Below, piece by piece: positions 2 to 59,105 of a stretch of DNA of 64,000 nucleotides (positions within the stretch are counted from its first letter, which is position 1; each line of letters starts with the position of its first letter). The stretch comes from a virus (taxonomy: Duplodnaviria > Caudoviricetes): IMG/VR virus record IMGVR_UViG_3300042558_004043; one strand, 5' to 3'. Under the pieces are notes generated by a model, which saw only the letters and a program-made list of their open reading frames with translations, was not told the DNA's origin and did no database searches. Both the position numbers and the translations under genes were made by a program.

Positions 2-223
2 GGTTTGGGTCCTGAACCTGGAGGAGCTGAATTACCTCCTCCACCACCTCCACCAGGTGGTGAAGAGGGTGGAATAACTCCTGAATCGTTTAATAGAGAT
101 AATTTAAATATTTTATTAGAATCGGACTCATTATTTGAAGAGGATTCTTATATCGATTTATCTAAAGCTAAAAATTCATTAGGTCAAATGGAGTCTCAAC
201 TAGAAAAACTTCTGAGAGATTGA
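2..223 (+). CDS. C-terminal fragment of an upstream gene, probably portal vertex protein (gp20-like) tail
   Basis: Frame is open from the window start (GLGPEPGGAELPPPPPPPGGEEGG...) to TGA at 221-223. Low-complexity Gly/Pro/acidic tail. Position upstream of protease-scaffold-capsid genes matches T4 gene order 20-21-22-23. Identity inferred from synteny only. Confidence 0.45.
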   Translation, partial: GLGPEPGGAELPPPPPPPGGEEGGITPESFNRDNLNILLESDSLFEEDSYIDLSKAKNSLGQMESQLEKLLRD

Positions 224-231
224 TATTTATA
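222..231 (+). promoter_or_regulatory. Putative late-promoter motif GATATTTATA
   Basis: TATTTAT core at 224-230, 14 nt before the ATG at 245; same motif recurs before many structural genes. Confidence 0.55.
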
Positions 232-244
232 ATAAAAAAAGAAA

Positions 245-967
245 ATGATTAAGTTCGGAAATATTAAATCAAAGATTGAAGAAAAATTACTTGAATCTTA
301 TTCTAAGAATACTTTTAAATCTGAAATGAGGAATTTTAAGTCTTTAGTTTTGGGTAATAAGAATATTAGTAAGTTGTTTTATCTATACGATGAAATGAGT
401 TCAAATAAAGGTTTAAACGAATCTTTGGTTAATGATTACATCTATGAATGTGTTACAATTTATGAGAACACCGTAAATAAAATTGATGAATCAACAATCA
501 ACAATCTAAAGAAATGGGTTTCTGATGTTAAATGTGATAATAAGTACGAGAACATTGATAATTTGTTTTCAACTGACGTTTTAACAATTGAGTCTCGTTT
601 AAAAAGTAAAAAGGTTATTTCTGAAAACTTAATTAAGTCTACTGAAACCAAAAAAACAGAAACAGTTAATTTGCCGATTTCAACTATGATTAATATTGCA
701 AATAAAACTTTCTCAAATTACGTTGAAAATTTAAATGAGTCTGACAGACAAGATTTAATTAAATTTTTAAAGACCGAAGACTCTGAATTGGAACCTCAGT
801 TTGAGTCAATTAAAAATGAGGTTAAAACAAAATTAACTTCTTTGAAGGAAGGCACACAAGATAATGACACTTTAGACAGAGTTGAAGAAACAATAACAAA
901 AGTTGATTCTGAGACGTATAATAAATTGTCATACTTCAGATTAAAGAACTTGAACGAAAGTCTTTAA
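245..967 (+). CDS. Hypothetical head-module protein (240 aa, helical, many L/I-x-E motifs)
   Basis: Long ORF with A-rich leader, between putative portal and prohead protease; no recognisable catalytic motif. Confidence 0.75.
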   Translation: MIKFGNIKSKIEEKLLESYSKNTFKSEMRNFKSLVLGNKNISKLFYLYDEMSSNKGLNESLVNDYIYECVTIYENTVNKIDESTINNLKKWVSDVKCDNKYENIDNLFSTDVLTIESRLKSKKVISENLIKSTETKKTETVNLPISTMINIANKTFSNYVENLNESDRQDLIKFLKTEDSELEPQFESIKNEVKTKLTSLKEGTQDNDTLDRVEETITKVDSETYNKLSYFRLKNLNESL

Positions 968-1155
968 TCCTCAGAGTCTTTTCTTTTTTGAACGTATTTG
1001 GCTTTTTTAAGAATATCTCTTTTTCTAATAGATTTTTTGGTATATTCTTTTCTATTAACCAACTCAGAGGTTTGTTTTGTTTTAATAACTTTGCTCTTAA
1101 GAATTTTAAGTGCCTTCTCAATATTAATATTTTTATCTAATTTAACGATTAACAT
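964..1155 (-). CDS. rpsU: 30S ribosomal protein bS21 (phage-encoded)
   Basis: MLIVKLDKNINIEKALKILKSKVIK...R.EY.K.S..KR....KA.Y.Q fits the bS21 pattern and resembles Bacteroidota S21 (MLII...NIDRALK..K.K). 63 aa, basic. bS21 next to head genes is a described feature of large freshwater phages. Confidence 0.88.
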   Translation of the reverse strand: MLIVKLDKNINIEKALKILKSKVIKTKQTSELVNRKEYTKKSIRKRDILKKAKYVQKRKDSED

Positions 1156-1200
1156 ATATTACAAATATCTTTAAAATAAGTTTTTTTTTGACTATCGGTA

Positions 1201-1229
1201 CAAATATACTTATTTTTTTTAAAAATAAA
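1201..1229 (-). promoter_or_regulatory. Possible Bacteroidota sigma70-type promoter for bS21
   Basis: Minus-strand TATATTTG (-7 element TAnnTTTG) at 1201-1208 with only an imperfect -33 (TTTA). A variant late motif GATATTTGT also lies at 1161-1169 on the minus strand. Confidence 0.35.
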
Positions 1230-1250
1230 CTTGTATAATATGGAAAGTTG

Positions 1251-1721
1251 ATGAAAAAAGGAAAGACCTCACAGATTCAGGGGTTTAAAACGGCCAAAGT
1301 AGTTTATGGCACGGTAGATTCAGTTAATTTCAAGTCATTGTATTTAAACATTCAAACATGGGTCGAACCCAAGATAAATTCTGAAAATTGGAATAGAATA
1401 GTTTTAAACTTAAGTCGGTTTATAAAACATTCGGTCTTAGATTCTTTAGACAAAACATTATTTGATAATAAATTTATTGTTGATTTAGATTTACGTTCAA
1501 GCGGATTACAAAAAGGTAAAAAGTCATTTTTAAATTTGGAAATAAATTTTTATTTGACAGGAGATGAGGGTGATTTTAAATCAAGACGACTCAAAGAGTC
1601 ACTTAAAAAAATATGCAAACAATTATTTCAGGAAAACTTCACAAACAACGAATACTTCAAGTTCCAACTTACAAAAACCAAAAAAACTAAGGTAGAGAAA
1701 ATAGAAACCGACAATCTTTAA
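1251..1721 (+). CDS. Hypothetical protein (head module)
   Basis: ORF of about 156 aa, no recognised motif. Confidence 0.75.
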   Translation: MKKGKTSQIQGFKTAKVVYGTVDSVNFKSLYLNIQTWVEPKINSENWNRIVLNLSRFIKHSVLDSLDKTLFDNKFIVDLDLRSSGLQKGKKSFLNLEINFYLTGDEGDFKSRRLKESLKKICKQLFQENFTNNEYFKFQLTKTKKTKVEKIETDNL

Positions 1722-1742
1722 TATTTATAAAGAAAATTAAAG

Positions 1743-2468
1743 ATGAATCATCAAATTATACAACCCGGTCAAATAGGTAAGGGATTACTTGTTGAACACG
1801 ATGCGGGTTATATTTCACCTACGGAACAACGTAACGCCAATTTAATCCGTGAGTCTAAAGGAATGTTGGACCACTCAAAACCATTTGAGTTTTATGCGGT
1901 ACTACAAAAATACAATACTCCAAATAGAAACGGTAGAATATATCCTGAAAAAGTATTAAAAAGAGAAGCCGACAATTATAAAAAAATGATTGGTAAAGGT
2001 ATTGCTTTGTCTGAATTAAATCACCCTGAGTCATCACTTGTCGATTTAGATAGAGTTTCTCATGCAATTACCGATATATGGTGGGAAGGTCCTGTTTTGA
2101 TGGGTAAATTAAAATTACTCACTTCGCCAGGTTTTCATGAAAGAGGAATTGTTTCTACAAAAGGAGACCAAGCGGCAAATCTTTTAAGACAAGGTGTAAC
2201 ACTTGGTATCTCATCTCGTGGTGTGGGGTCACTTAAAAAAATTGGAGAACAAAACGAAGTACAGGACGATTTTGAATTAATTTGTTTTGACCTTGTATGG
2301 TCACCATCAACACCTGGTGCTTATCTATTCTTGGAGCCAAATGACAGATTTAACTTTGAAGAAAACTTGGAGGAGGAGAACAAAATGAAAGCACAAAGAG
2401 TTTCAGGTGAAAGTTCAAACAAATCGCTTGACTTAATGAAAAAATTGAACGATTATTTGAAGTACTAA
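1743..2468 (+). CDS. gp21: Prohead core protein protease (T4 gp21-like)
   Basis: N.NGRIYP, ELNHPE (catalytic His region), GISSRGVGS (catalytic Ser region) and FDLV.SPSTPGAY motifs typical of gp21 proteases; upstream of scaffold and capsid genes. Confidence 0.92.
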   Translation: MNHQIIQPGQIGKGLLVEHDAGYISPTEQRNANLIRESKGMLDHSKPFEFYAVLQKYNTPNRNGRIYPEKVLKREADNYKKMIGKGIALSELNHPESSLVDLDRVSHAITDIWWEGPVLMGKLKLLTSPGFHERGIVSTKGDQAANLLRQGVTLGISSRGVGSLKKIGEQNEVQDDFELICFDLVWSPSTPGAYLFLEPNDRFNFEENLEEENKMKAQRVSGESSNKSLDLMKKLNDYLKY

Positions 2469-2479
2469 AAATAATTAAA

Positions 2480-2689
2480 ATGGACGAAAAATATTTTGTA
2501 GCAAAAATTACAACAGACATGCCTGACCCCGAGACAGGTAAAATTAAAAAACTAAGACAAGAAAAATTAGTTAAAGGTTATTCACCAACAGATGTAGAAG
2601 CAAAAGTGACTAAAGTTTTTGAAAATTATTCTGAAGATTGGAGAATAACCGCAATTGTTGAAAGTAAAATAGATGAGGTGATAGAATAA
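2480..2689 (+). CDS. Hypothetical protein (69 aa)
   Basis: Short ORF with A-rich leader directly after the protease, followed by a terminator. Confidence 0.7.
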   Translation: MDEKYFVAKITTDMPDPETGKIKKLRQEKLVKGYSPTDVEAKVTKVFENYSEDWRITAIVESKIDEVIE

Positions 2690-2711
2690 TCTATATATCA
2701 ATGATTAAATT

Positions 2712-2737
2712 AAAGGAGGTTTTATACCTCCTTTTTT
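2712..2737 (+). terminator. Intrinsic terminator
   Basis: AAAGGAGGT-tttat-ACCTCCTTT stem followed by a T tract. Confidence 0.8.
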
Positions 2738-2817
2738 ATTTTATTTTGGTTTGATTTGTCAATATAAATAAATTTTTTAAAACTCGATAATATTTATATA
2801 AAAAATTAAAACCAAAA

Positions 2818-4287
2818 ATGGCAAAAGAAAAATCAATTGTTGAAGAGGCAATCATCCAAATGAGAAATTTGGAAGAAGCGGTTGCTGAAAATGCAAAAGG
2901 AATACTTGCTTCTACTATGAAGGAAGAAATCAAAGAGCTAGTAAAGGAATCTCTATCTGAACAAGAAGAAGATGAGATTGAAATGACTGATGTAGACATG
3001 GAAGGACCTGAAATGGAAACAGACGACGAAATGGACTCTGATGAAATGGACATGGGTATGGAAATGGATACTGATGACGAAATGGAAGATATGGAAGAAC
3101 CTATCGACCTTACCGACAAGTCAGATGAAGAAGTACTTCGTGTATTTCAACTTATGGGACCTGATGATAACATTATCGTAACAAAAGACGATGCTGGAAA
3201 CATCAATATCAAAGATGAAGAAAATGAATACATGATTGTAGGTGAATCTGACGAAGAAATGGAAGAAGAATTCTATGAGTCAGAAGAAATGGAAGAATCT
3301 ATGGAAATGGAGAAATCATATTCTACTGACGAATCAATTGAAGACATCGTTTCTAAAATGTTTGATGATGAAGAATCAGACGAAGAAGAAATGGATTCTG
3401 AAGAAGACATGGAATTTAGCGATGAATATTCAGAAGGTGACGAAATTATGTACGAAATCGAAATGTCTGACGACTCCGATGAAGAAGAGGAGGAAGAGGA
3501 AACTGAAGGTATGGTGTACGAAATTGAAACGCCTGATGAAGACGAAGAAGAGGAAGAATACAATGAATCTTTAGAAGAGTCTAAAAAGACGTTCAAAGCA
3601 AAAGGTAAGAACATGGGTAAACCAAAATTCTCATATAATAAAAATCCAAATCAAGGTGAAGGGTTTAAAGTTGTTAAAAAGAGTGCTAACAAAACTATGG
3701 GTACAGGTAACGCTAAAAAAGTTAATGTATACAAAGATAAGGAAACTCTTGATGGCGAATTCAAAATTAAACCAAAAGGCGCTAAGAAAACGGAAACAAA
3801 AGAAGCCGCACGTACATATGGTAATGGTTCTAAATCAGGTCGTGGTCTAAGAAAAGGGATTACTCCTAATAGAAACCTAACTTTTGAAGGTGTGGATTCA
3901 AACGAGTTACAAATTCTTAGAGAGAAAAACGAAGAGTATAGAAAGGCACTTAACGTGTTCAGAAATAAATTAAACGAGGTAGCGGTATTCAATTCAAACT
4001 TGGCATACGCAACACGTTTGTTTACTGAACATTCAACATCTAAACAAGAAAAAATTAACATCTTGAAAAGATTTGATGGTGTTGAAACTCTTAAAGAATC
4101 GAAGAATTTGTATAAATCAATCAAGGATGAGCTTTCAACGGTACAAAGTCAACCAATGAACGAGTCAATCGAACGTAAAATTGAATCAGTTCCGGCTACA
4201 GGTTCTGCGGTTAACTTAATTGAATCAAAAACTTATGAAAATCCTCAATTCCTTAGAATGAAAGATTTAATGGCAAAATTAAAATAA
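2818..4287 (+). CDS. Prohead core scaffolding protein (gp22-like)
   Basis: Very acidic E/D/M-rich N-terminal half, coiled-coil C-terminal part (LNEVAVFNSNLAYATRLF...KINILKRFD); lies between gp21-like protease and major capsid gene. Confidence 0.8.
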   Translation: MAKEKSIVEEAIIQMRNLEEAVAENAKGILASTMKEEIKELVKESLSEQEEDEIEMTDVDMEGPEMETDDEMDSDEMDMGMEMDTDDEMEDMEEPIDLTDKSDEEVLRVFQLMGPDDNIIVTKDDAGNINIKDEENEYMIVGESDEEMEEEFYESEEMEESMEMEKSYSTDESIEDIVSKMFDDEESDEEEMDSEEDMEFSDEYSEGDEIMYEIEMSDDSDEEEEEEETEGMVYEIETPDEDEEEEEYNESLEESKKTFKAKGKNMGKPKFSYNKNPNQGEGFKVVKKSANKTMGTGNAKKVNVYKDKETLDGEFKIKPKGAKKTETKEAARTYGNGSKSGRGLRKGITPNRNLTFEGVDSNELQILREKNEEYRKALNVFRNKLNEVAVFNSNLAYATRLFTEHSTSKQEKINILKRFDGVETLKESKNLYKSIKDELSTVQSQPMNESIERKIESVPATGSAVNLIESKTYENPQFLRMKDLMAKLK

Positions 4288-4315
4288 ACTTAAAATTAAT
4301 AAAAAACCAAAAAAA

Positions 4316-6181
4316 ATGGGAGCATTATTAGAATCAGGTCTTGTTGGTAACATCGGTCTTAAGCACCTTAAAGTTATCAAAGAAGATACTATCAACAAAT
4401 GGGACAAATTAGGGTTCCTTGAAGGTCTTAAAGGCCACCTAAAAGAAAATGTAGCGCAGTTATATGAAAACCAAGCGTCACATTTGATTAACGAAGCTAC
4501 TTCTGACGGTTCTTCAGGTTCATTTGAAACTGTTGTATTCCCAATCGTTAGACGTGTATTCTCTAAGTTACTTGCTAATGAAATCGTATCAGTACAAGCT
4601 ATGAACTTACCAATCGGTAAGTTGTTCTACTTCGTACCAAAGATTCAGGCTTACAATGCGGGTAATCCATACTTTGACCCACAATTACCATCAAATAACT
4701 ACGATGGTTCTTCAGGTGGTCACTTGAGTCCAGTTGGGTCACCAGGTGCTTATCCTGGTTCACCGACATCAGGGTATACAACTGGTAACCAATTCCAAAA
4801 GAACCTTTATGATTTGTTTTATGAAGGTAATGAAGGTCAATTAGACCCTCCAGGTTTGTTTGACTATTCAAAAGGACAGTGGTCTGCAGTTACTGTACCC
4901 GGTGACGTTCAAGTTTGGTCAAATGGTTCATTGGTTAACTATGGTGGCGAATTTGATGGTTTGAACGTTAGAAAAGTTATCGTTAAAATTAGCGGTTTTG
5001 CTAATGTTGGTAATGGTAAATTAATTGGACCTGATGGTAATGAATACGATTCAGAAACTTTCTTGTCTGATTTAAGAGTATTTGCAACAAATGATTTCGT
5101 TGACGCAGAAAGTCCTTGTTCAGTAGTATTTGACGATGCTGGAGACCCAAATTCATTATTGTTTAGAGTTGTGACTCAACAATATGGTCAAGGTATCGTT
5201 AGCGGATTAAACACTCGCACTCCAGTTCCATGGCCAGCACAAGGTAACGGAGGTTCATTCAACGATATTTGTAGCCCAACAGGTGACATTTATTTGGAAG
5301 TTGACCTTTCTTGTCCTGTTTGTGCAACTTGTTCAGGTACCACTTTAGATGGTTATACAGGTACGACTATTGATACTTTAGGTTTAACTAACTTAAGTGC
5401 AGTATTCAGACGTTATAAGAACTTAGAATTCGAAGACCAAATCGGTGAAGTTTCTTTCGACCTTGAGTCTGTAACTGTTTCTGTAACTGAAAGAAAGTTA
5501 AGAGCTCAGTGGTCTCCAGAACTTGCTCAAGACGTTGCGGCATTCCACAACATTGACGCTGAAGCTGAATTGACGGCTTTATTGTCAGAGCAAGTAGCTG
5601 CGGAAATTGACCGTGAAATTCTTCGTGACCTTCGTAAGGGTGCCGCTTGGAACTTACGTTGGGACTACAACGGTTGGAGAAGAATTTCTCAAACTACTTC
5701 TTACACTCAGAAAGATTGGAACCAAACATTGATTACTGCAATCAACCAATTGTCAGCTCAAATCCACAAGTCAACTCTTCGTGGTGGTGCTAACTGGATT
5801 GTTGTATCATCTGAGGTTTCTGCAATCTTTGATGACTTGGAATATTTCCACGTTTCAAATGCGTCTCCTGAGCAAGACCAATACAACATGGGTATTGAAA
5901 GAGTGGGTACTTTAGCTGGTCGTTACCAGGTTTATCGTGACCCATACTTCCCACCGAACCAAATATTGATTGGTCACAAAGGTACATCGTTACTTGATAC
6001 TGGTTACATTTACGCACCGTATGTACCACTTCAATTAACTCCAACTATGTACAATCCATTCAACTTCACACCAATCAAAGGTATCATGACACGTTACGCG
6101 AAGAAGATGGTCAACAACCGCTTCTATGGCAGAATTACAATTGATGGTGTTCGTACATTTGATTTAAGAGAATTGAGATAA
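4316..6181 (+). CDS. gp23: Major capsid protein (T4 gp23-like)
   Basis: IVSVQAMNLPIGKLFY, RKLRAQWSPELAQD, GIDAE-like NIDAEAELTALLSEQVAAEIDREI, GYIYAPYVPL and F.P.KGIMTRY motifs characteristic of gp23. Confidence 0.96.
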   Translation: MGALLESGLVGNIGLKHLKVIKEDTINKWDKLGFLEGLKGHLKENVAQLYENQASHLINEATSDGSSGSFETVVFPIVRRVFSKLLANEIVSVQAMNLPIGKLFYFVPKIQAYNAGNPYFDPQLPSNNYDGSSGGHLSPVGSPGAYPGSPTSGYTTGNQFQKNLYDLFYEGNEGQLDPPGLFDYSKGQWSAVTVPGDVQVWSNGSLVNYGGEFDGLNVRKVIVKISGFANVGNGKLIGPDGNEYDSETFLSDLRVFATNDFVDAESPCSVVFDDAGDPNSLLFRVVTQQYGQGIVSGLNTRTPVPWPAQGNGGSFNDICSPTGDIYLEVDLSCPVCATCSGTTLDGYTGTTIDTLGLTNLSAVFRRYKNLEFEDQIGEVSFDLESVTVSVTERKLRAQWSPELAQDVAAFHNIDAEAELTALLSEQVAAEIDREILRDLRKGAAWNLRWDYNGWRRISQTTSYTQKDWNQTLITAINQLSAQIHKSTLRGGANWIVVSSEVSAIFDDLEYFHVSNASPEQDQYNMGIERVGTLAGRYQVYRDPYFPPNQILIGHKGTSLLDTGYIYAPYVPLQLTPTMYNPFNFTPIKGIMTRYAKKMVNNRFYGRITIDGVRTFDLRELR

Positions 6182-6200
6182 TCAATATCTTAGTAATATT

Positions 6201-6229
6201 AAAAAGGTCAGAGAAATCTGACCTTTTTT
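6201..6229 (+). terminator. Intrinsic terminator after capsid gene
   Basis: AAAAAGGTCAGA-gaaa-TCTGACCTTTTT, 12-bp stem with GNRA loop and T tract. Confidence 0.88.
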
Positions 6230-6237
6230 ATTTTATA

Positions 6238-6375
6238 AAGGTGAGACTTGTATCTTAATCGTCTTCCATCTCACCTTATTGATTAGAATTGTTTCACTCT
6301 AATCTTATTTTAATATGTAGACGAAACCTCATTATGATTCGACATAAATTAGTTTGATAGGACAGGCATCAAACT
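6238..6375. ncRNA. Candidate structured non-coding element (four consecutive hairpins)
   Basis: Inverted repeats AAGGTGAGA/TCTCACCTT (6238-6277), GATTAGA/TCTAATC (6281-6304), TATGT..CGAA/TTCG.ACATA (6314-6346), AGTTTGAT/ATCAAACT (6351-6375); no ORF seen on either strand. No known family recognised. Confidence 0.35.
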
Positions 6376-6411
6376 TAAACAACGATATTTATATGTAAAT
6401 GTTTTTTACAT

Positions 6412-6987
6412 ATGAGGTTTTTATTTTTATTGTTTTTTCTACCATTACTAACAAATGCACAACTTAGGGATTCGGTTTATGTAACAACTTCTATTTTTAA
6501 TGTAGTATATTCTGAAAAGTTACAACAACCAAAATGGGTTGAATATAGGGTGTTATGTACTGACGGTACAATATCCCGTAAAGGTCTTGATTTTTATCCT
6601 GTAAAGGGAATTGTCACCTCAACTGAGGAAGACTATGAAAATAATATATACGATAAAGGTCATTTGGCTCCGGCAGCTGACTTTAATTGTGACAAAGAAA
6701 ATTTAAAACAAAGTTTCTCATATCTTAATTGTACACTACAACACGAGAAACTAAATCGAGGCACATGGAGACTTCTTGAGGCTTACGAGAGAGAACTCGC
6801 AAAAACTAACACAGTTTCAGTTGAAATCAGGATGAATTATAGTAAAAATTCAAAAATCTTACCTACGGGAGCAACTATACCCGATTCTTTTACAAAAATT
6901 ATAACTTACGGAAATAAAAAAGAAAAATATTTCTTCAAAAATGAAGAGCCGAAATCGTCTGACTACAACAATTACAAGGTCAAATGA
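6412..6987 (+). CDS. DNA/RNA non-specific endonuclease (Serratia/NucA His-Me type) with signal peptide
   Basis: YDKGHLAPAADF (DRGH-like active site), SFSYLNCTLQHEKLNRGTWRLLE (N..PQ...LN...W..LE); hydrophobic N-terminal signal peptide ending LTNA|Q. Confidence 0.9.
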   Translation: MRFLFLLFFLPLLTNAQLRDSVYVTTSIFNVVYSEKLQQPKWVEYRVLCTDGTISRKGLDFYPVKGIVTSTEEDYENNIYDKGHLAPAADFNCDKENLKQSFSYLNCTLQHEKLNRGTWRLLEAYERELAKTNTVSVEIRMNYSKNSKILPTGATIPDSFTKIITYGNKKEKYFFKNEEPKSSDYNNYKVK

Positions 6988-7013
6988 TAATAAACAATTA
7001 AACCAATAAAAAA

Positions 7014-9338: not shown

Positions 9339-9359
9339 AATAAAAAATAATTAAAAATT

Positions 9360-9385
9360 AAAAGGAGGCATTAGCCTCCTTTTTT
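9360..9385 (+). terminator. Intrinsic terminator
   Basis: AAAAGGAGGC-atta-GCCTCCTTTT followed by T tract; TATTTAT motif follows at 9396-9402. Confidence 0.85.
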
Positions 9386-9419
9386 GTTTTATAGATATTT
9401 ATAAAAAAACTTATTAAAT

Positions 9420-21416: not shown

Positions 21417-21438
21417 TATTACAAAAAAATAATTATTA

Positions 21439-21466: not shown

Positions 21467-21537
21467 AATTTATTGATATTTATATAAAAACTATAAATAA
21501 TTGTATTTAGAATACACTATTAAAAAAATATAAGTAA

Positions 21538-31672: not shown

Positions 31673-31718
31673 TTCTTCTTTTTTTTAACTTTTTGTGTTT
31701 ACCCATATATTTATAAAT

Positions 31719-34170: not shown

Positions 34171-34221
34171 TAACAATGTGTTTTTTATTGACTATAATTA
34201 TAAATATCTAATTACAGTAAA

Positions 34222-35117: not shown

Positions 35118-35127
35118 TTTTTTTATA

Positions 35128-35952: not shown

Positions 35953-35974
35953 GAAAAATATTTTATTATAAATA

Positions 35975-37438: not shown

Positions 37439-37460
37439 TAAAATGTTTTATCAATAAATA

Positions 37461-39286: not shown

Positions 39287-39288
39287 AG

Positions 39289-41202: not shown

Positions 41203-41207
41203 AATAA

Positions 41208-41582
41208 TTATTTTTTCATTTTATATGGTTCATCCATTTTAGATAAATCCTTCTCCATTAAACTTTGAATTACCTCATCGTCAACATCTATATCTGATAA
41301 GGTAAAAGATTCTTTAGAAGCGCTAGTTTTTTCCCAGATACTTGACTGTAATTTTGATAAACTTAGTTTTTTCTCAACACAATCATTTATGATTTTTTGT
41401 TGTTCTTTAATGATAGGACCAAGAACTGTCATGTCCTCGGTCTCCTTCATTAACGAAAGCATTTTGTTTTGAATTCTAATAGCGGTATTTCTTTGTTCTA
41501 CTAATTCATTGTAGATTTCTTGCATAAGAGCAAGTATAGATTCTTGAGTTAAATTAATTTCTTTTTTTTGTGGTCTGGCCAT
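41208..41582 (-). CDS. Hypothetical coiled-coil protein (124 aa)
   Basis: ORF tightly packed in the minus-strand operon. Confidence 0.7.
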   Translation of the reverse strand: MARPQKKEINLTQESILALMQEIYNELVEQRNTAIRIQNKMLSLMKETEDMTVLGPIIKEQQKIINDCVEKKLSLSKLQSSIWEKTSASKESFTLSDIDVDDEVIQSLMEKDLSKMDEPYKMKK

Positions 41583-41607
41583 GATAATAAATATCTAAAC
41601 GTATTTT

Positions 41608-42357
41608 TTATTTTAACATACCTTGAACCAACCCATAATAGATAACTTTATATTTTTTCATAGAGCTTCTAATTTCTTTGGTACTCAAATTAGTCATTTC
41701 CCTAAGTGATAATAAAATAATATTTTTATTAAACTTATTATTTGAAGTCCCTATGAATATATCATCATAATTTTGAAAAATTTCATATAAAGCGTGACCT
41801 AATTTTAACTCATTTTCATTTAATGTTTCATCCTCAATTAATAACTCTATTTGAGTTATAAAATTTTTGATAATCGTTTCTGAATCCAATGAATCATTAT
41901 CAATACTGTATGAAAAACTCGGGTTATTTTCCAAATCAGTTGAGATGTCTTCATAAGATATCTTTCTGTTCATATCTTTTTGGTCTTTTATAATTTGACC
42001 CATAAGATAATTTTTACAGATTGTACCAAAATATGAATAAGCCTTTTTTTCTTTAGCCGGCTTAAACTTATCTATTTTGGTCATTAAAAACGAGTGTGTA
42101 TCAATATGAATTTCTGTAAAATTCATATCTTTTCGGTAAAGTTTATATCTCCTTATTATCGAAGATATCATCTTATCTAAAGGTTTTCTTAGGTATTCGT
42201 TATAAATTTGGTTTTTCTCCTCAAATGTATCGGCGGATAAAAATCTTATAACCGCCATTTCTTCTCTTACATCAAAGTAGTTCGCTTGTTTTGGTTTCCT
42301 TCCTTTCTTCTTCAACTCGATATTTGCAGTTCCATCGTTGTTGAATTCTTCGGTCAT
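41608..42357 (-). CDS. Putative late-transcription sigma factor (T4 gp55-like)
   Basis: HSFLMTKIDKFKPAKEKKAYSYFGTICKNYL aligns by eye to the sigma region 2 segment of gp55 (..NFDP.K..NPFAYFTQI...AFL). Confidence 0.55.
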   Translation of the reverse strand: MTEEFNNDGTANIELKKKGRKPKQANYFDVREEMAVIRFLSADTFEEKNQIYNEYLRKPLDKMISSIIRRYKLYRKDMNFTEIHIDTHSFLMTKIDKFKPAKEKKAYSYFGTICKNYLMGQIIKDQKDMNRKISYEDISTDLENNPSFSYSIDNDSLDSETIIKNFITQIELLIEDETLNENELKLGHALYEIFQNYDDIFIGTSNNKFNKNIILLSLREMTNLSTKEIRSSMKKYKVIYYGLVQGMLK

Positions 42358-43160: not shown

Positions 43161-43169
43161 AATTTTAAA

Positions 43170-44231: not shown

Positions 44232-44232
44232 A

Positions 44233-44493
44233 TTAATATTTGTTTAATAATCCTTTATTTAGTAATGTATTAAATGATAATTTAAATGGAATTGATAGGT
44301 CTGAACTTTTTGGTCCTAATGTTTCATCAACTTCATCTTTTTCAGTTAATAATATCTCAGTCAATAACTTGACCATTTCGTACTTAACTACACTTATATG
44401 ATTTTCTGAAGTACCAGTGTCATTTGGTATACTTATGTAGTTATCGATTTCATCTAAATCTAGATAATAATTTTCATTTAATACTTTTAGCAT
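44233..44493 (-). CDS. Hypothetical protein (86 aa)
   Basis: Packed ORF within the operon. Confidence 0.7.
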   Translation of the reverse strand: MLKVLNENYYLDLDEIDNYISIPNDTGTSENHISVVKYEMVKLLTEILLTEKDEVDETLGPKSSDLSIPFKLSFNTLLNKGLLNKY

Positions 44494-45089
44494 TGTACTA
44501 TTTGTTTTAATTTTTCTTCGAACTCTTTTACAGACCTGATAGTATATAAAGAATCGACGTTTTTATTATATTCTGTTTCGAATTTTATAACTATTTTGTC
44601 TTTAGGACACTCTAATAATAGAGATGGGTTGGATGTAAGTAAAACATCCACCTCATTCCACATCGAGTTCATAGTAATATTACTGTAAAATTTAATTTTC
44701 TCAACTAAACATCCAAATTTAGATAGAAAAAATAGTGTTGCGGGTTTTGATTTACCTATCTCATCCGACACAATTAATAACTCATGACTATCTCTTAAAT
44801 TAAGATAGATTTCATTTAAATCATTAAATGTCGTGTATTCGGATGACTGAGAGTGACCAAAAATTTCCATAGGGAATTCTTCATATAAAAAAGAATACAT
44901 TTCATCATCATCTCTAAAATTAAAATGTTTTTTAATCTCCAAATTCTCTATTGGGTAAGTTATTTCGTATTTGAAATCATCTTCATACTCAATCCCATCC
45001 GTCTTATCAATCATGAATTTTTGATAAGTTTGTTCGATTTTACCCAAAGTATTTCTCAAAACCCCGTTTACCTCAATACCAATTCTCAT
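44487..45089 (-). CDS. 5'(3')-deoxyribonucleotidase-like HAD protein with degenerate motif I
   Basis: MRIGIEVNGVLRN in place of IGIDxDGVL.D; SKPATLFFLSKFG and YNKN motifs resemble phage NT5C-like proteins. Confidence 0.6.
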   Translation of the reverse strand: MRIGIEVNGVLRNTLGKIEQTYQKFMIDKTDGIEYEDDFKYEITYPIENLEIKKHFNFRDDDEMYSFLYEEFPMEIFGHSQSSEYTTFNDLNEIYLNLRDSHELLIVSDEIGKSKPATLFFLSKFGCLVEKIKFYSNITMNSMWNEVDVLLTSNPSLLLECPKDKIVIKFETEYNKNVDSLYTIRSVKEFEEKLKQIVQC

Positions 45090-54673: not shown

Positions 54674-55499
54674 GATTCTTTAACGCCTTCATTAATTGTG
54701 TTAAACTAATACCTTCTTTTTCCGCCAATTTTTTAATGGATTTTAAATTATTCATTAAAATTTTGCTAAGTGAAGAATCTTTACCTACCACCTCAGAGTC
54801 ATCCTTGGATTTTTTGGTAATAATGTCCTCAACCATTTTAACCATTTTTTGTTTTTGTACCTCTGACAACTTTTCTTTCTCAACAATTCTTTGTTTTAAT
54901 TTGCCGTTCTTTCTTTTAACGTCTTTTAACTTTCCAAATTGTTTTGTTCTCTCTACGGGATTATCAACTCCCATATCTTTTAAAGTGTTCACTGTTCCTT
55001 GATAATCTTTGTCTTTTGTTTCTTCATATCCAAAAGCGTCTTCCATATTCACCTCAGAAACAACATTGTCATCCTTTTCTTCACTTTCTCCATAATATAC
55101 ACGATAACCTCTTGTTACAGGGTCATTGGTTACTCTTGACATACCAATTGTTTGGTCCAAAGTTTTTCTTGGATGTAATGTCATATCTAGTGGTGGTATC
55201 TTAGAACCTAACATTGTTCCATCTGCATCAATTATCTCATCAATCTCACCATCTTTCTCAATTGATTTTAAAGCATTATCTACATTTTTTTTACTCAATT
55301 TTTGTCTTGAGTTTAAAATTTTCTCGATAGTTTTTTTCAACTTATTTTCATGTTTTTTATTAAACACTTTTTTTTCATCTTTTTTTCGTGATTCTGTTAA
55401 AGTTTCTGCGATTGTATAATATAAAGAAATTGTCTCTCCTCTATCTTTCAAGAAGAAATAACGACCATTACTAAAATATTCGGTATTGTAATTAATCAT
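54666..55499 (-). CDS. Hypothetical protein (277 aa)
   Basis: First gene of the minus-strand block; TATTTAT motif 11 nt upstream. Confidence 0.7.
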   Translation of the reverse strand: MINYNTEYFSNGRYFFLKDRGETISLYYTIAETLTESRKKDEKKVFNKKHENKLKKTIEKILNSRQKLSKKNVDNALKSIEKDGEIDEIIDADGTMLGSKIPPLDMTLHPRKTLDQTIGMSRVTNDPVTRGYRVYYGESEEKDDNVVSEVNMEDAFGYEETKDKDYQGTVNTLKDMGVDNPVERTKQFGKLKDVKRKNGKLKQRIVEKEKLSEVQKQKMVKMVEDIITKKSKDDSEVVGKDSSLSKILMNNLKSIKKLAEKEGISLTQLMKALKNHE

Positions 55500-55510
55500 A
55501 TCTTTTTACA

Positions 55511-55537
55511 ATAAATACTTCGTTACAATGTATTTAT
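55511..55537. promoter_or_regulatory. Divergent pair of TATTTAT motifs
   Basis: ATAAATA at 55511-55517 (TATTTAT on minus, 11 nt from ATG 55499) and TATTTAT at 55531-55537 (12 nt from ATG 55550). Confidence 0.6.
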
Positions 55538-55549
55538 CAATAAAAAAGA

Positions 55550-58500
55550 ATGGCGGGTCAGAATATTAATCAATACGTTTACCCAAATTTAAATCCGAAG
55601 TTAGCGTTAGAGAGTTATGATATGTCTTTAACCTCTGATGAAAGAGGTTTTAATATGGAGGTAGTGTTTTCTCCGTATTTGATTGCCCAAACTTATGGTA
55701 ATAGACTTCCATTCTATTTTGATATTAATAGTTCAATAACTAACCAAAAATTTACTTTAAATTATAAAGAGTATAACAGAAATAATATTTTTGTTTCTGA
55801 AAATTATTATAACATAAATAATGAGGATTTAACTTGTTATTCTGCTCAGACATCTTGTGATATTGGGTTAACGGGTATCGATAATGGACTCGTTACGGGA
55901 ATGACAGGATATTCAATTACATTTACAAAGGGTTTATTTTCAGACGGATTAAAATTTGAAAGATTATATTTTGATAGAAGATTAAAGTTATTTCAAGTAA
56001 CCGCTAATACCAACTCACCAAATGTTAGATTTTCAGGGTTTCCAAATACTGTTTTATATGAAGTTGTAAGTAAATACGGTCAAACCGAAGGATTATATCA
56101 CGAATTGTATGGTGGTTTCTATCAAGGTTTTTATCGGTTATTTGATTATGATTATGATATTTTCCCTGAAAGAGTAAATAAGGGTTGGACAATAGAGTTA
56201 TTATTAAAACCTAGATTAGTTAGTGAATATTTCCCCGGACCTAACGAAACAACACTAAACTTATTATATCCTGAGAATGCAAATACATTCTTTTATTTAG
56301 GGACAAGAGCAGAAAATAAATTCTACCACCACGCTGACGGAACCCCAAATTGTTTTACAGGTTATACAAGATTTACATCACCTTTAACCGGAATATCAAC
56401 TTGTGCTTGTTGTAACAGAACTGTAACAAATAGTAGATGTATATATGTTTATCCACCACGTTCTAAAAATGGAGTTCACGATACCCACGTTAATTATGGA
56501 TGTGACAAATGTGGTTCGGATAAAATGACCCAAGCAACATGTGGATGTGGTTGCGATAAAATCGCATGTGCAACATGTGGATGGGAATGTCAAATTCACG
56601 AATGTGCGGTTATAGTAGAAGTTACACCAACTCCCACCCCAACACCAACCTCAACCCTAAGTAATTGTATATTACCTCCAGTTTGTACCCCAACATGTAA
56701 TACATGTTCAAACTGTACAGATTGTGTTGATTGTGTTTATACAGGATTTTCATCGATTGAAAATACTTGTGAAGTTGACCCAAAAATGGATGTGTTATCA
56801 AACAATATTTCATTTAGACTTTGTGGAGACCCAAAAAATCCGGGTATTGGAATAAGAGCAATTAAATTTACAGGGGGATGTGAGACAACGGGTTCTTGCG
56901 AAACTTCAGGAATTACATATACCACAGGTTATACGATATTAGATTACTGCACACCACCAATATATGAATATTGTCAAAATATAAATTATTCGTTCATAGA
57001 ACAAGAACATTGGTTCCAACTTGATGCGGTTTGGGAAAGATATACATGGTTAGATACTTGTGATTTATGGTATAGAGGAGGATTGGGAGATATTACAAAA
57101 AAGGTTTATTTAGAATCACTGGCAAACAATTCGGTTTCTTTAATTGATTCTTCTCATACAAGAATGGACCCTAAGTCCACTTTAGAAATTGATATTGTAA
57201 GTTTAAACGAAAAATGGTTACTTGAAGAAAATTTTAGAAAAGGTAGGTTAAAAATCTATATTAATGGTAAACTCTTTTACACCATTGAGGATTTTGAAGA
57301 GATAATACCAAGAGCTCTTAATACCGATAAAGAAAAACAAGTCGGGGTTCCATTTAACGTATCATGGGGTGGTGGAACACAAGGATTGAGAGAAAATTTA
57401 ACATTTAACCCTAAGCCGGCTTGTGACATTGTATTTGGTATTGAAGTAGATTTATTATTATCAGGTTTTATTAGTGAAGGTTCAATAAATGCTCAGTATG
57501 TTTTAACATCAGGATTACCATATAAAGATGAAATACAAGTAAGTTTTAGAAATATTCTTAATAGAAAGAATGGTGGTCATTATGAGATTGATAGTAAAGT
57601 TATTATACCTCCTTTTGGAATTTCAGGAGTTACATATGAAACTTTAAATGAAAACTTTAATGATTTGGATGGAACGGGATATTACCTTAATGTCGAGGTG
57701 TTCCCAAAAACAATTATATCAAATTTTGATGTTGTTTCTGATGTTATATTTTTATCACCTACCCCAACACCAACTCCACCGGTTACTCCTACCACAACTC
57801 CAACACAAACTGAAACTCCAACTCCTACCCCAACAAATACTGAAACTCCAACTCCTACCCCAACATTCACACCAACCCCTGAGCAGGTTATAACAGATGC
57901 GATAATAACTAATGAAGTTGAATACATCGATGTTGGAAATGGGTTTTACTTGAAATTCATTGACCCTGAAGTTTTAGATAATCCGATACTAACGGATAAT
58001 GATGAATATATAATTGTTGGCAATTCCCTTTATTTAAAATATATTAACCCATCACCAATACCACCCCCAAGTAATACTCCAACCCCAACGTTTACTCAAA
58101 CACCAACCCCTACTTGTATACCATTTATTAATACTATCATTATTTCTAATGGTTCATATGTCGCCACTAATGGAACTTATGCAAGAAATAACTCTTCATC
58201 AGTTTTTACTCAATTGAGCGGAACTGGCGTTATATTTTTTGGTGGGGATGCATGGTATGTCAATTCAGGACCTGCTGGAAATGTTGCTTGGAATACCTCT
58301 CAATTAGGGACAGGAACTTGGTCTCCTTTGCCACCAGGAAATTCATCAGGAATTATTGCAGAATATTATTATTATAATTGTGTAACACCTACAACAACTC
58401 CAACTGTAACCCAGACCCCTACAAATACTGAAACACCAACACCCACACCAACCCCAAGTCCATCAGAACCATTATATCCTCTTACCATAAACATTCAATC

Positions 58501-59065
58501 AATGAGTGGAGGTGAGTCAGTTATATTTGAAGGAATAACTTATACGGCAAATACTACTGTAAACATTTTAATTAATACTCCTTATCTTATTGATGGGGTA
58601 CCGTCTCCAGGATATATATTAACTGGATGGGGTAGTATTGGCGGTGTTTCATTTGAGTTCTTGTCAGGAAACACTTGGACTTTTTCAATGAATTTTACAG
58701 GTGGCTCGAGTATTACCCCTCAATATGAAGAGATTCCAACACCTACACCTACGATAACTCCATCAATAACTCCAACTACAACAATAACCCCAACTCCGTC
58801 ATTAACCCCAAATTGTGTTCGTCAAATAGTTGTTCCAACATTATGGAATGGGGCAACTAGTATAAACAGTAATACACTTCAATTAACTCAGACTTCAGAA
58901 ACTTTACAAATACAAGTGAATGATGTTATAACAGATAATATTGGGGCAACAAGTTTTGTTGGAATTGTATCTTCAGACGGAACTTATACATACGTATTTA
59001 CAGGACCTGGTGGTGGGGTTTCATTTGATTGTGATTTCCCATTAACATTTTCTGGAACTTGTTAA
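55550..59065 (+). CDS. Structural protein (1171 aa) with Cys-rich segment and Thr/Pro tracts
   Basis: LamG-like strands (GWTIELLLKP...KIYINGK) flanking a Cys-rich insert; several TPTPT tracts; preceded by TATTTAT. Confidence 0.7.
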   Translation: MAGQNINQYVYPNLNPKLALESYDMSLTSDERGFNMEVVFSPYLIAQTYGNRLPFYFDINSSITNQKFTLNYKEYNRNNIFVSENYYNINNEDLTCYSAQTSCDIGLTGIDNGLVTGMTGYSITFTKGLFSDGLKFERLYFDRRLKLFQVTANTNSPNVRFSGFPNTVLYEVVSKYGQTEGLYHELYGGFYQGFYRLFDYDYDIFPERVNKGWTIELLLKPRLVSEYFPGPNETTLNLLYPENANTFFYLGTRAENKFYHHADGTPNCFTGYTRFTSPLTGISTCACCNRTVTNSRCIYVYPPRSKNGVHDTHVNYGCDKCGSDKMTQATCGCGCDKIACATCGWECQIHECAVIVEVTPTPTPTPTSTLSNCILPPVCTPTCNTCSNCTDCVDCVYTGFSSIENTCEVDPKMDVLSNNISFRLCGDPKNPGIGIRAIKFTGGCETTGSCETSGITYTTGYTILDYCTPPIYEYCQNINYSFIEQEHWFQLDAVWERYTWLDTCDLWYRGGLGDITKKVYLESLANNSVSLIDSSHTRMDPKSTLEIDIVSLNEKWLLEENFRKGRLKIYINGKLFYTIEDFEEIIPRALNTDKEKQVGVPFNVSWGGGTQGLRENLTFNPKPACDIVFGIEVDLLLSGFISEGSINAQYVLTSGLPYKDEIQVSFRNILNRKNGGHYEIDSKVIIPPFGISGVTYETLNENFNDLDGTGYYLNVEVFPKTIISNFDVVSDVIFLSPTPTPTPPVTPTTTPTQTETPTPTPTNTETPTPTPTFTPTPEQVITDAIITNEVEYIDVGNGFYLKFIDPEVLDNPILTDNDEYIIVGNSLYLKYINPSPIPPPSNTPTPTFTQTPTPTCIPFINTIIISNGSYVATNGTYARNNSSSVFTQLSGTGVIFFGGDAWYVNSGPAGNVAWNTSQLGTGTWSPLPPGNSSGIIAEYYYYNCVTPTTTPTVTQTPTNTETPTPTPTPSPSEPLYPLTINIQSMSGGESVIFEGITYTANTTVNILINTPYLIDGVPSPGYILTGWGSIGGVSFEFLSGNTWTFSMNFTGGSSITPQYEEIPTPTPTITPSITPTTTITPTPSLTPNCVRQIVVPTLWNGATSINSNTLQLTQTSETLQIQVNDVITDNIGATSFVGIVSSDGTYTYVFTGPGGGVSFDCDFPLTFSGTC

Positions 59066-59105
59066 AACAACATAATAAACTAATGATATTTATAAAATAA
59101 AAAAC

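What the first reader, a model, noticed from the sequence alone, without database searches (positions are those of the whole stretch)
222..59093. Sense-strand TATTTAT motif (reverse complement of T4 late core ATAAATA) precedes at least 12 genes: candidate new late-promoter type
Seen: TATTTAT, usually as GATATTTATA, lies at + 224, 1722, 2791, 6386, 9396, 21477, 31708, 55531, 59087. On the minus strand it lies at 34200, 35968, 37454, 41587, 52858, 55511. It is oriented with the downstream gene, mostly 11-20 nt before the start codon, and often directly after a terminator. Known: T4 gp55 recognises TATAAATA on the sense strand. Inference: this phage's gp55-like sigma factor (41608-42357) reads a different, inverted-looking -10 element. 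Gaps of only 4 nt at 31708 and 41587 would imply near-leaderless transcripts if those sites are functional.
Basis: partly seen in the sequence, partly recalled or inferred. Interest (0 to 1): 0.7.

Follow-up and report, generated by a model that had tools for sequence, protein, structure and literature searches.

The report
Phage-specific TATTTAT promoter box
A short DNA box, TATTTAT, sits just before the head, packaging, lysis and other particle genes of this uncultured giant T4-like lake phage; it is most likely the phage's own promoter, read by a very diverged relative of the T4 late sigma factor, and this can now be tested in two cultured phages.

Summary
All 15 reported sites exist. TATTTAT is not enriched over the whole window (61 hits against 52.6 in shuffles). 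It is the top 7-mer in the 45 nt before ORFs: 23 of 94 regions against 2.3 expected, and ATATTTAT 18 sense against 1 antisense. In up to 80 related contigs the box is present before every orthologue of three boxed genes and before none of three unboxed ones.

The box lies after terminators and in a 50-nt divergent gap, has no -35 partner, and carries a phase-locked A run at +12 to +14. In a complete 308-kb relative, 21 of 99 boxes lie exactly 4 nt before the ATG, so the transcript probably starts about 5 nt after the box and is leaderless there.

ORF 41608-42357 is sigma-like. Its domain 2 superposes on T4 gp55 (Z 10.8), and its family profile hits only gene 55 in T4. It has an extra C-terminal domain, and no T4-type clamp or gp33 was detected.

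Two cultured phages, Flavobacterium phage immuto and Microcystis phage Mel-JY01, carry this sigma family and the box but no canonical sigma.

Verdict: a new variant of T4-type late transcription. "Inverted" is misleading, because the box differs from TATAAATA at two central bases. No transcript 5' ends were mapped. This scan had already noted the same box on other DNA (at least 161 genomes).

The parts
224..230 (+). TATTTAT box, 14 nt before ORF 245-967 (240 aa, unknown, between portal and protease); the upstream stop codon TGA abuts the box
   Evidence: present before 65/65 orthologues
1722..1728 (+). box, 14 nt before the prohead protease gene 1743-2468
   Evidence: phrog_207, 1.4e-43; present before 78/78 orthologues, ATATTTAT columns invariant
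2791..2797 (+). box, 20 nt before ORF 2818-4287 (scaffold position), which is followed by the gp23-type major capsid gene 4316-6181; the unit ends at terminator 6201-6228
   Evidence: (Pfam Gp23, 6e-74); present before 75/75 orthologues, and absent (0/59) before the capsid gene itself
6386..6392 (+). box, 19 nt before nuclease gene 6412-6987; a 7-bp inverted repeat lies between box and ATG
   Evidence: phrog_14168
9396..9402 (+). box, 12 nt after terminator 9360-9383 and 17 nt before the 3998-aa ORF 9420-21416
21477..21483 (+). box after a terminator-like hairpin, 54 nt before the 2668-aa ORF 21538-29544
31708..31714 (+). box (in the palindrome TATTTATAAATA), 4 nt before ATG 31719 of an endonuclease VII/HNH-like gene; predicted leaderless
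   Evidence: (phrog_1035)
55531..55537 (+). box, 12 nt before ORF 55550-59065 (1171 aa); one of two boxes in a 50-nt divergent gap
59087..59093 (+). box, 12 nt before ORF 59106-62756 (1216 aa)
34200..34206 (-). box, 23-29 nt before ORF 33451-34176
35968..35974 (-). box, 15 nt before ATG 35952 of ORF 35128-35952; it abuts the stop codon of the upstream gene
37454..37460 (-). box, 15 nt before ORF 35975-37438; it abuts the stop codon of the upstream gene
41587..41593 (-). box directly after the sigma gene, 4 nt before ATG of ORF 41208-41582 (124 aa); predicted leaderless; the position is conserved in distant lineages
52858..52864 (-). box, 3 nt after terminator 52868-52889, before glycosyltransferase gene 51584-52852
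   Evidence: (phrog_7162)
55511..55517 (-). box, 11 nt before ORF 54666-55499, the first gene of the long minus-strand operon that ends with the sigma gene
41608..42357 (-). 249-aa sigma-like protein (sigma domain 2 with a gp55-like long helix pair, plus a 100-residue C-terminal four-helix domain); candidate reader of the box

Best explanation
TATTTAT, in extended form (G/A)A-TATTTAT-A, is the -10-like element of a phage-specific promoter class. It has no -35 partner. Transcription probably starts at a conserved A about 5 nt after the 7-mer (position +12, counting the first T as +1). This gives 0-nt leaders where the box lies 4-5 nt from the ATG (31708, 41587) and short A-rich leaders elsewhere.

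In this phage the class drives terminase, portal, prohead protease, the scaffold-capsid operon, an endonuclease VII-like gene, an endolysin-like gene, giant virion ORFs and a glycosyltransferase operon. This is a late-type regulon.

The most likely reader is host core RNA polymerase carrying the phage protein encoded at 41608-42357. This protein is a very diverged relative of T4 gp55.

Shown: the enrichment, strand bias, conservation, geometry, fold and co-occurrence. Inferred: promoter function, the start site, late timing and which protein reads the box.
For: Position and strand
- TATTTAT is the top upstream 7-mer: 23 of 94 regions against 2.3 expected, and ATATTTAT 18 sense against 1 antisense.
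- Tandem intergenic regions hold 21 co-oriented against 4 antisense copies.
- The complete relative G001 gives ATATTTAT 65 sense against 7.5 expected, and 9 antisense against 10.5 expected.

Selection
- The box is present before 65/65, 78/78 and 75/75 orthologues of three boxed genes.
- It is absent before all orthologues found (0 of 59-79) of three unboxed genes.
- The box columns are invariant while the flanks are 30-80% conserved.

Promoter context
- Boxes lie 3-16 nt after terminators.
- Two boxes are the only shared element in the 50-nt divergent gap at 55500-55549.
- No -35 or -33 element is conserved.

Start-site geometry
- A at +12, +13 and +14 in 22, 20 and 20 of 25 sites, phase-locked to the box.
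- In G001, A at +12 in 81 of 99 sites. Sites with a gap of 15 nt or more still have it in 36 of 45.
- The G001 gap histogram has a spike of 21 sites at exactly 4 nt.

Regulon
- Boxed genes include terminase, portal, protease, the capsid operon, an endonuclease VII-like gene and an endolysin-like gene.
- Host-type TTTG-N19-TAnnTTTG promoters precede other genes to the left of the window.

The sigma protein
- 42 of 60 diverse family members hit Pfam Sigma70_r2.
- The family profile hits SigA region 2 (E 0.004) and gp55 (E 0.2) in the PDB.
- The model has pLDDT 91.6.
- gp55 chain 7d7c_F superposes with Z 10.8, rmsd 3.4 A over 114 residues.
- The only match of the family profile in the whole T4 genome is gene 55.
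- The Tyr of gp55 that stacks on A-12 aligns with the family's nearly invariant Y110, while the residues of the A-9 and A-8 pockets differ (PMC7892883).

Co-occurrence
- Flavobacterium phage immuto has a family member (E 1e-36), no Sigma70_r2 hit, and ATATTTAT 19 sense against 1 antisense.
- Microcystis phage Mel-JY01 has a family member (E 1.9e-30), no Sigma70_r2 hit, and ATATTTAT 18 sense against 1.9 expected.
- In lineages whose sigma is only 29-34% identical, a TATTTA-type box still sits directly after the sigma gene.

Method control
- The same pipeline run on T4 recovers sense TATAAATA (20 against 2.1 expected) and leaves TATTTAT at background.
Against: - No transcript 5' end was mapped. 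The RNA data available were assembled contigs, which cannot show starts.
- The sigma gene is the last gene of a 14-19 kb operon whose only recognisable promoter is the box itself. How the first sigma is made is therefore unexplained.
- The complete relative has a second, canonical sigma (regions 1.2, 2 and 4) behind host-type promoters.
- The sequence link to gp55 is weak (E 0.016 to 0.2).
- The sigma has no evident clamp-binding tail, and no gp33 or T4-type gp45 was detected in the complete relative.
- In G001 the box precedes about 100 genes spread all along the genome, so "late" may be too narrow a label.
Confidence: 0.65

Rival explanations
1. The box is a promoter, but it is read by another factor. 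One candidate is the phage's second, canonical sigma (266 aa in the complete relative, outside this window). The other is host sigma-A holoenzyme, possibly remodelled by a phage protein. In either case the ORF at 41608-42357 would read something else or act later.
For: - G001 encodes a canonical sigma with regions 1.2, 2 and 4, placed behind host-type TTTG-N19-TATCTTTG promoters. It would therefore be made early and available to switch on a box regulon that includes the diverged sigma gene.
- TATTTATA matches 4 of the 6 specified positions of the Bacteroidota -7 element TAnnTTTG.
- Host-type promoters in this phage also sit exactly 4 nt before an ATG, the same geometry as the box.
Against: - Mel-JY01 and Flavobacterium phage immuto have the box and the diverged sigma but no Sigma70_r2 match at E <= 1.
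- No -35 or -33 element accompanies the box, although a sigma with region 4 or host sigma-A would be expected to use one.
- The two free 'nn' positions of the host consensus are invariant T in the box.
- The same box occurs in a phage recorded on a cyanobacterial host, which has a different host promoter consensus.
Confidence: 0.17
2. The box acts in RNA rather than DNA, as a processing site, a translation enhancer or a binding site for a regulator in the 5' leader of longer transcripts.
For: - It is strand-specific and close to start codons, as an mRNA signal would be.
- Many boxes lie inside apparent operons and abut the stop codon of the upstream gene.
Against: - In the 50-nt divergent gap no upstream transcript can supply either box in RNA unless another, unseen promoter lies inside the opposite gene.
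- Boxes follow terminators by 3-16 nt.
- A sharp mode at exactly 4 nt from the ATG, and an A run locked to the box rather than to the ATG, fit an initiation site better than a ribosome signal.
- Genes coupled by overlapping stop and start codons lack the box.
Confidence: 0.07
3. The motif is a chance product of AT-rich intergenic DNA.
For: The window-wide count is not above shuffles: 61 against 52.6.
Against: - Upstream enrichment has z = 14 against dinucleotide shuffles of the same regions.
- Antisense copies stay at background.
- The box is conserved before 100% of orthologues while the flanks vary.
Confidence: 0.01

Closest known systems
Bacteriophage T4 late transcription: TATAAATA box read by gp55, with co-activator gp33 and sliding clamp gp45 (PMC2988020, PMC7892883)
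   Same: - An 8-bp AT-only box at the -10 position, with no -35 element and AT-rich DNA just downstream.
- It precedes head, packaging and lysis genes on both strands.
- The phage carries a small, very diverged sigma whose domain 2 and following long helix pair superpose on gp55 (Z 10.8).
- The A-12-stacking Tyr is conserved.
- The phage has a gp23-type capsid protein and a T4-type prohead protease.
   Different: - The box is TATTTATA: positions 4 and 5 are TT instead of AA. Sense TATAAATA is at background here.
- The sigma is 249 aa against 185 aa. It has an extra C-terminal four-helix domain that is weakly sigma-4-like, and no evident acidic or hydrophobic clamp-binding tail.
- gp33 and T4-type gp45 were not detected by Pfam models in a complete relative.
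- Many promoters abut the ATG, implying leaderless mRNA.
- The sigma gene lies inside its own presumed regulon.
Bacteroidota sigma-A promoters: -33 TTTG and -7 TAnnTTTG (consensus recalled from general knowledge, not checked in a paper here)
   Same: - Same position relative to the start, since host-type promoters in this phage also sit 4 nt before an ATG.
- Both begin with TA and are T-rich.
   Different: - The box ends in TATA rather than TTTG.
- Its two middle bases are fixed.
- It has no -33 TTTG.
- It also occurs in a phage recorded on Microcystis.
Variant late-promoter consensus of T4-related phages, such as Aeromonas phage Aeh1 with a/gC at -13/-12 (PMC2988020)
   Same: It shows that gp55-type boxes drift between lineages while the system is kept.
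   Different: The change here is in the central bases, which gp55 flips into pockets, and the sigma has a different domain make-up.

Membership tests
T4-type late transcription (gp55/gp33/gp45) | Sense-strand box TATAAATA at -10 | tested here: not met
   The sense box is TATTTATA: 15 upstream regions, against 2 for its reverse complement, which is sense TATAAATA. The same pipeline finds TATAAATA in T4, 20 against 2.1 expected.
T4-type late transcription (gp55/gp33/gp45) | No conserved -35 element, and AT-rich DNA just downstream of the box | tested here: met
   Position tables of 25 and 99 sites show no -35 signal, only a weak T tract at -17 to -14. A is at +12 in 22 of 25 and 81 of 99 sites.
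T4-type late transcription (gp55/gp33/gp45) | Phage sigma homologous to gp55 (sigma domain 2 plus helix-loop-helix) | tested here: inconclusive
   The fold matches: 7d7c_F with Z 10.8, rmsd 3.4 A over 114 residues. The sequence link is weak: profile against the gp55 chain E 0.2, although gene 55 is the only hit of the profile in the T4 genome, E 0.016. Domain 2 of other sigmas scores almost as well (Z 9-10.4).
T4-type late transcription (gp55/gp33/gp45) | Hydrophobic and acidic C-terminal clamp-binding motif on a flexible linker | tested here: not met
   The C-terminus is a confidently predicted helix of a folded domain and ends in basic and hydrophobic residues. No disordered linker or acidic tail is present. 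This was judged by inspection only.
T4-type late transcription (gp55/gp33/gp45) | gp33 co-activator and PCNA-like gp45 clamp encoded by the phage | tested here: inconclusive
   No hit to Pfam Trans_coact, gp45-slide_C or DNA_PPF at E <= 1 in the complete 308-kb relative. Diverged versions could escape these models.
T4-type late transcription (gp55/gp33/gp45) | Expression late in infection and dependent on replication | not testable with these tools
   No time-course data exist. The only indication is the functions of the boxed genes.
Sigma-70 family (Pfam Sigma70_r2 / r4) | Region 2 recognisable by sequence | tested here: inconclusive
   The window protein has no Pfam hit. 42 of 60 family members hit Sigma70_r2 at E <= 1, the best at 4e-7. 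The profile hits SigA region 2 at E 0.004.
Sigma-70 family (Pfam Sigma70_r2 / r4) | Region 4 helix-turn-helix domain | tested here: inconclusive
   Sigma70_r4 is not among the 25 families listed for the 60 members (73 families matched in all). For the C-terminal domain model, the top hit of an unbiased search is sigma-28 region 4 (Z 5.9, rmsd 2.8 A over 75 residues). Six further region-4 rows score Z 4.5-5.0, tied with unrelated helical proteins.
Bacteroidota sigma-A promoter | -7 TAnnTTTG with -33 TTTG at 19-21 nt | tested here: not met
   The box ends in TATA and no TTTG lies upstream. True host-type promoters are present elsewhere in the same genome.

The most novel reading that the evidence does not exclude
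A very large, undescribed family of two-domain gp55-like sigma factors runs late transcription in abundant aquatic phages recorded on hosts of at least two phyla. The family has at least 1143 clusters at 50% identity. Each member would combine sigma domain 2 and a helix pair with a C-terminal domain that stands in for gp33 or sigma region 4. Transcription under this system would need no clamp and no -35 element, and would often be leaderless. The sigma gene would sit inside its own regulon as a positive-feedback switch. Natural box variants (TATTTAT, CTATTTAA, TATTTAGGTA) would track the sigma lineages.
Probability: 0.3. Interest if true: 0.7.

Novelty: new variant of a known kind. Interest (0 to 1): 0.5.

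Why it matters
- It would give the promoter code for a very abundant group of freshwater and brackish phages. With it, their roughly 100 transcription units per genome could be annotated and their late regulon predicted.
- It would add a gp55-like sigma with a different domain make-up and a different central-base specificity. That is a natural experiment on how sigma domain 2 reads flipped non-template bases.
- The exact 4-nt spacing predicts many leaderless mRNAs in phages of Bacteroidota.
- The cultured pairs, Flavobacterium sp. LMO8 with phage immuto and Microcystis with Mel-JY01, make all of this testable at the bench.

Tried and rejected
- **RNA evidence.** Twenty-two RNA runs, mostly river metatranscriptomes, hold 8-26% of the words of window 1-10000. 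Laying four of them gave only assembled contigs from related strains. They show that the capsid-operon region is present in RNA libraries. They cannot show starts, strand or level, and no DNA run was laid beside them, so they do not count as evidence for a start site.
- **blastn against GenBank phages.** A search with 55550-62756 found no match.
- **tblastn with the window sigma.** It found only Mel-JY01. Using the Mel-JY01 protein as query then found the immuto phages and a 484-kb uncultured phage.
- **"SprT metalloprotease" label.** JGI gives this name to several family members. I rejected it: the protein has no HExxH motif and all its structural neighbours are sigma factors.
- **phmmer against the PDB.** The single protein gave nothing.
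- **Foldseek on the C-terminal domain alone.** There was no significant match. RpiR-type helix-turn-helix domains had the best TM-scores, 0.43-0.48.
- **IMG/VR search with a distant family member.** It found nothing.
- **PHROG searches.** They gave no function for the ORFs downstream of the sigma gene or for the 1171-aa and 1216-aa ORFs.
- **Literature.** Searches for TATTTAT(A) with phage and promoter, for gp55 with Bacteroidetes, for Mel-JY01 and for immuto found no description of this box.
- **A host-type promoter for the sigma gene.** Only a weak TAATTTTG without a -33 element lies inside a coding region at 46825.

Full report
**Context**

The window is bases 27402-91401 of a 107,982-bp virus record that is about 37% complete. 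GC content is 33%. The record carries:
- a gp23-type major capsid gene at 4316-6181 (Pfam Gp23, 6e-74);
- a T4-type prohead protease at 1743-2468;
- portal and large terminase genes just left of the window;
- two giant ORFs of 3998 and 2668 aa.

Earlier notes of this scan call it an uncultured lake jumbo phage of Bacteroidota. They report the same TATTTAT box in at least 161 other genomes. I treated those notes as leads and re-tested the claims here.

**Observation**

Seven carry the exact GATATTTATA and 12 fit it with at most one mismatch. Ten of the 15 lie 11-20 nt before the start codon, and the others lie at 4, 4, 5, 23-29 and 54 nt. Two starts were re-set to the first ATG after the box (31719, and 35952).

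The window-wide count is not above chance: 61 hits against 52.6 in shuffles. The signal is positional.
- 32 of 85 hits in the record lie in the 6.3% of non-coding DNA.
- In a blind k-mer test on the 45 nt before each of 94 ORFs, TATTTAT ranks first. It occurs in 23 regions against 2.3 in dinucleotide shuffles (z = 14).
- ATATTTAT occurs in 18 regions against 0.9 expected, with a single antisense copy.
- Tandem intergenic regions hold 21 co-oriented against 4 antisense copies, where composition predicts 3.6 and 3.1 (p = 9e-4).

As a control I ran the same pipeline on T4. It recovers Shine-Dalgarno words and sense TATAAATA (20 against 2.1 expected) and leaves TATTTAT at background.

**Conservation**

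I compared 80 related IMG/VR contigs whose protease is 78-95% identical.
- The box is present within 60 nt before every orthologue of three boxed genes: 65/65, 78/78 and 75/75.
- It is present before none of the orthologues of three unboxed genes, including the capsid gene (0 of 59-79).
- In alignments of unique upstream sequences the ATATTTAT columns are invariant, while flanking columns are 30-80% conserved.

A complete relative, G001 (308,574 bp with terminal repeats), shows the same picture. TATTTAT is the top upstream 7-mer (91 regions against 15.7). ATATTTAT gives 65 sense against 7.5 expected and 9 antisense against 10.5 expected.

**Anatomy and likely mechanism**

A position table of 25 sites gives G/A at -2, A at -1 (20 of 25) and A at +8 (18 of 25). 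No -35-like element appears, only a weak T tract at -17 to -14. An A run at +12 to +14 (22, 20 and 20 of 25) is locked to the box and not to the ATG.

In G001, A is at +12 in 81 of 99 sites. It is still there in 36 of 45 sites whose ATG lies at least 15 nt away. The gap histogram is bimodal. One sharp spike holds 21 sites at exactly 4 nt, with 7 more at 5 nt, and a broad mode covers 12-20 nt.

With a 4-nt gap the A of the ATG is position +12. The simplest reading is therefore initiation about 5 nt after the 7-mer. That gives leaderless mRNAs at 31708 and 41587, and at the endolysin-like gene left of the window. Elsewhere it gives short A-rich leaders.

Three context features fit initiation rather than read-through.
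- Boxes lie 3-16 nt after intrinsic terminators.
- The 50-nt divergent gap at 55500-55549 contains two opposed boxes and nothing else that is shared.
- Genes coupled by overlapping stop and start codons lack the box.

Host-type promoters (TTTG-N19-TAnnTTTG) exist in the same genome before other genes. Three of them also sit exactly 4 nt before an ATG. G001 has about 100 boxed genes and 41 genes with a host-type -7 element, and only 6 have both.

Boxed genes with a recognisable function are terminase, portal, protease, the scaffold-position gene plus capsid operon, an endonuclease VII-like gene, a nuclease, an endolysin-like gene and a glycosyltransferase. That is a late-type set. However, the spread of boxes along the whole of G001 means "late" is not proven.

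**The sigma candidate**

ORF 41608-42357 has no Pfam or PHROG match itself. It belongs to a very large family:
- at least 7968 proteins in the 90%-identity collection;
- 1143 clusters at 50% identity.

Sequence evidence:
- 42 of 60 diverse members hit Sigma70_r2, the best at 4e-7.
- The family profile hits SigA region 2 (E 0.004) and the T4 gp55 chain (E 0.2) in the PDB.
- Searched against the whole T4 genome in six frames, the profile's only match is gene 55 (E 0.016).

Structural evidence:
- The AlphaFold model has pLDDT 91.6.
- Its structural neighbours are almost all sigma factors.
- gp55 (7d7c_F) aligns over residues 27-145 with Z 10.8, rmsd 3.4 A and 114 residues. That is a longer stretch than for domain 2 of other sigmas, which align over 90-97 residues at Z 9-10.4.

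In the profile alignment the gp55 Tyr97, which stacks on the flipped A-12, aligns with the family's nearly invariant Tyr110. His95 and Thr99, which line the A-9 and A-8 pockets, align with Tyr and Gly (roles from PMC7892883).

This fits the box. Aligned in the same orientation, TATTTATA keeps T1, A2, T3, A6, T7 and A8 of TATAAATA and changes only positions 4 and 5. So "inverted" is a coincidence of the near-palindrome. The mechanistically meaningful description is a two-base central variant.

The protein differs from gp55 in three ways.
- It has a folded 100-residue C-terminal domain (pLDDT 87.6).
- The best unbiased structural match of that domain is sigma-28 region 4 (Z 5.9), with six more region-4 rows at Z 4.5-5.0. 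These scores are tied with unrelated helical proteins, so this is only suggestive.
- It shows no flexible linker or acidic clamp-binding tail.

Pfam models for gp33 and for both gp45 domains find nothing in the complete relative, which is inconclusive. A C-terminal domain that occupies the beta flap in place of gp33 is my inference only.

**Who reads the box**

G001 carries a second, canonical sigma of 266 aa with regions 1.2, 2 and 4. It sits behind host-type promoters. This is a real rival reader, so I tested co-occurrence in other phages.

| Phage | Family member (A1 profile) | Sigma70_r2 hit at E <= 1 | ATATTTAT before ORFs |
|---|---|---|---|
| Microcystis phage Mel-JY01 (190 kb, cultured) | one, E 1.9e-30 | none | 18 sense against 1.9 expected; 2 antisense |
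| Flavobacterium phage vB_FspM_immuto_2-6A (160 kb, cultured) | one, E 1e-36 | none | 19 sense, 1 antisense |

In Mel-JY01 the leaders are longer and carry GGAG. In immuto, TATTTAT occurs in 33 regions against 5.7 expected, and a second variant, ATATTTAGGTA, occurs in 16-19 regions.

Three metagenomic lineages have sigmas only 29-34% identical to this one. Two of them keep (A/C)TATTTAT directly after the sigma gene. The third has CTATTTA(A/C) there and at other syntenic spots, again with A at +12 to +14.

The box therefore travels with the diverged sigma, not with the canonical one, and not with one host phylum's promoter consensus.

**Open problems**

- The sigma gene is translationally coupled to the end of a 14-19 kb glycosyltransferase operon. 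The only recognisable promoters of that operon are boxes, both here and in G001. How transcription is primed is unexplained. One distant lineage (L113) has its own 131-nt spacer before the sigma gene, with a degenerate host-like element.
- No primary 5' ends were seen. The RNA data served were contigs.

**Comparison and novelty**

The system works like T4 late transcription: a single -10-type box, no -35 element, and a small diverged sigma, before morphogenesis genes on both strands (PMC2988020). It fails two defining features that I tested, the box sequence and the clamp-binding tail. Three more are inconclusive or untestable.

I found no paper describing this box or this sigma family. I rate it a new variant of a known kind, of moderate interest. 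It has good experimental access through two cultured phages. The scan had already found the same box repeatedly on other DNA. This report adds:
- the T4 positive control;
- the gene-55-only hit of the family profile in T4;
- the pocket-residue comparison with gp55;
- the canonical-sigma rival and its exclusion by co-occurrence;
- the immuto phage as a test system;
- the box variants in distant sigma lineages.

Noticed in passing
L099:1081-1881 (-) = G001:C1 about 128513-129313; outside the window's record: The complete 308-kb relative encodes a second, canonical sigma factor of 266 aa with regions 1.2, 2 and 4. It lies in an operon preceded by host-type TTTG-N19-TATCTTTG and TACTTTTG promoters. 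Its targets are unknown.
   Followed up: partly
window 41608-55499 (-): The sigma gene is the last, translationally coupled gene (ATGA overlap) of a long operon of glycosyltransferase genes. The only recognisable promoters of that operon are TATTTAT boxes at 55511 and 52858. The layout is the same in G001 (238.5-258.4 kb). This suggests a positive-feedback loop with an unknown trigger.
   Followed up: partly
window 34464-41582 (-); L114:10808-16192: The gene order after the sigma gene (about 120 aa, 635 aa, 71 aa, 520-540 aa, 450-490 aa) is kept in a lineage whose sigma is only 34% identical. None of these ORFs has a Pfam or PHROG match.
   Followed up: no
window 6393-6411: A 7-bp inverted repeat (ATGTAAA / TTTACAT) lies between box 6386 and the ATG of the nuclease gene. 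It could be an operator or a leader hairpin.
   Followed up: no
window 31708-31719; also 21477/21493 and 55511/55531: The perfect palindrome TATTTATAAATA, and closely spaced opposed boxes. The antisense copies in upstream regions are mostly these partners.
   Followed up: partly
window 221-230, 1719-1728, 35968-35977, 37454-37463: The stop codon of the upstream gene (TGA or TAA) supplies the G/A-A bases just before the box, so the coding end and the promoter overlap.
   Followed up: no
window 2817 / 4313: RNA-library contigs of two river runs join 2817 to 4313 with TATTTT between the two sides. This implies related strains in which the 489-aa gene is absent and the capsid gene follows the box leader directly. 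Only 21 nt fit on the shorter side, so support is weak.
   Followed up: no
window 9420-21416 and 21538-29544: Two giant ORFs of 3998 and 2668 aa, each behind its own terminator plus box. Their functions were not examined.
   Followed up: no
PP395634.1 (Mel-JY01) and NC_055915.1 (immuto): The sigma of a phage recorded on Microcystis is closest, among GenBank phages, to an uncultured 484-kb phage (LR756508.1, 42% identity) and then to Flavobacterium phages (37%). Mel-JY01 has 34% GC, and its leaders carry GGAG, unlike the Bacteroidota phages. Its family ties may deserve a look.
   Followed up: no
L119-L126 (Flavobacterium phage immuto): A second strong upstream word, ATATTTAGGTATCAA, occurs in 16-19 regions. 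It shares TATTTA with the box. It may be a sub-class of the same promoter or a composite site.
   Followed up: no
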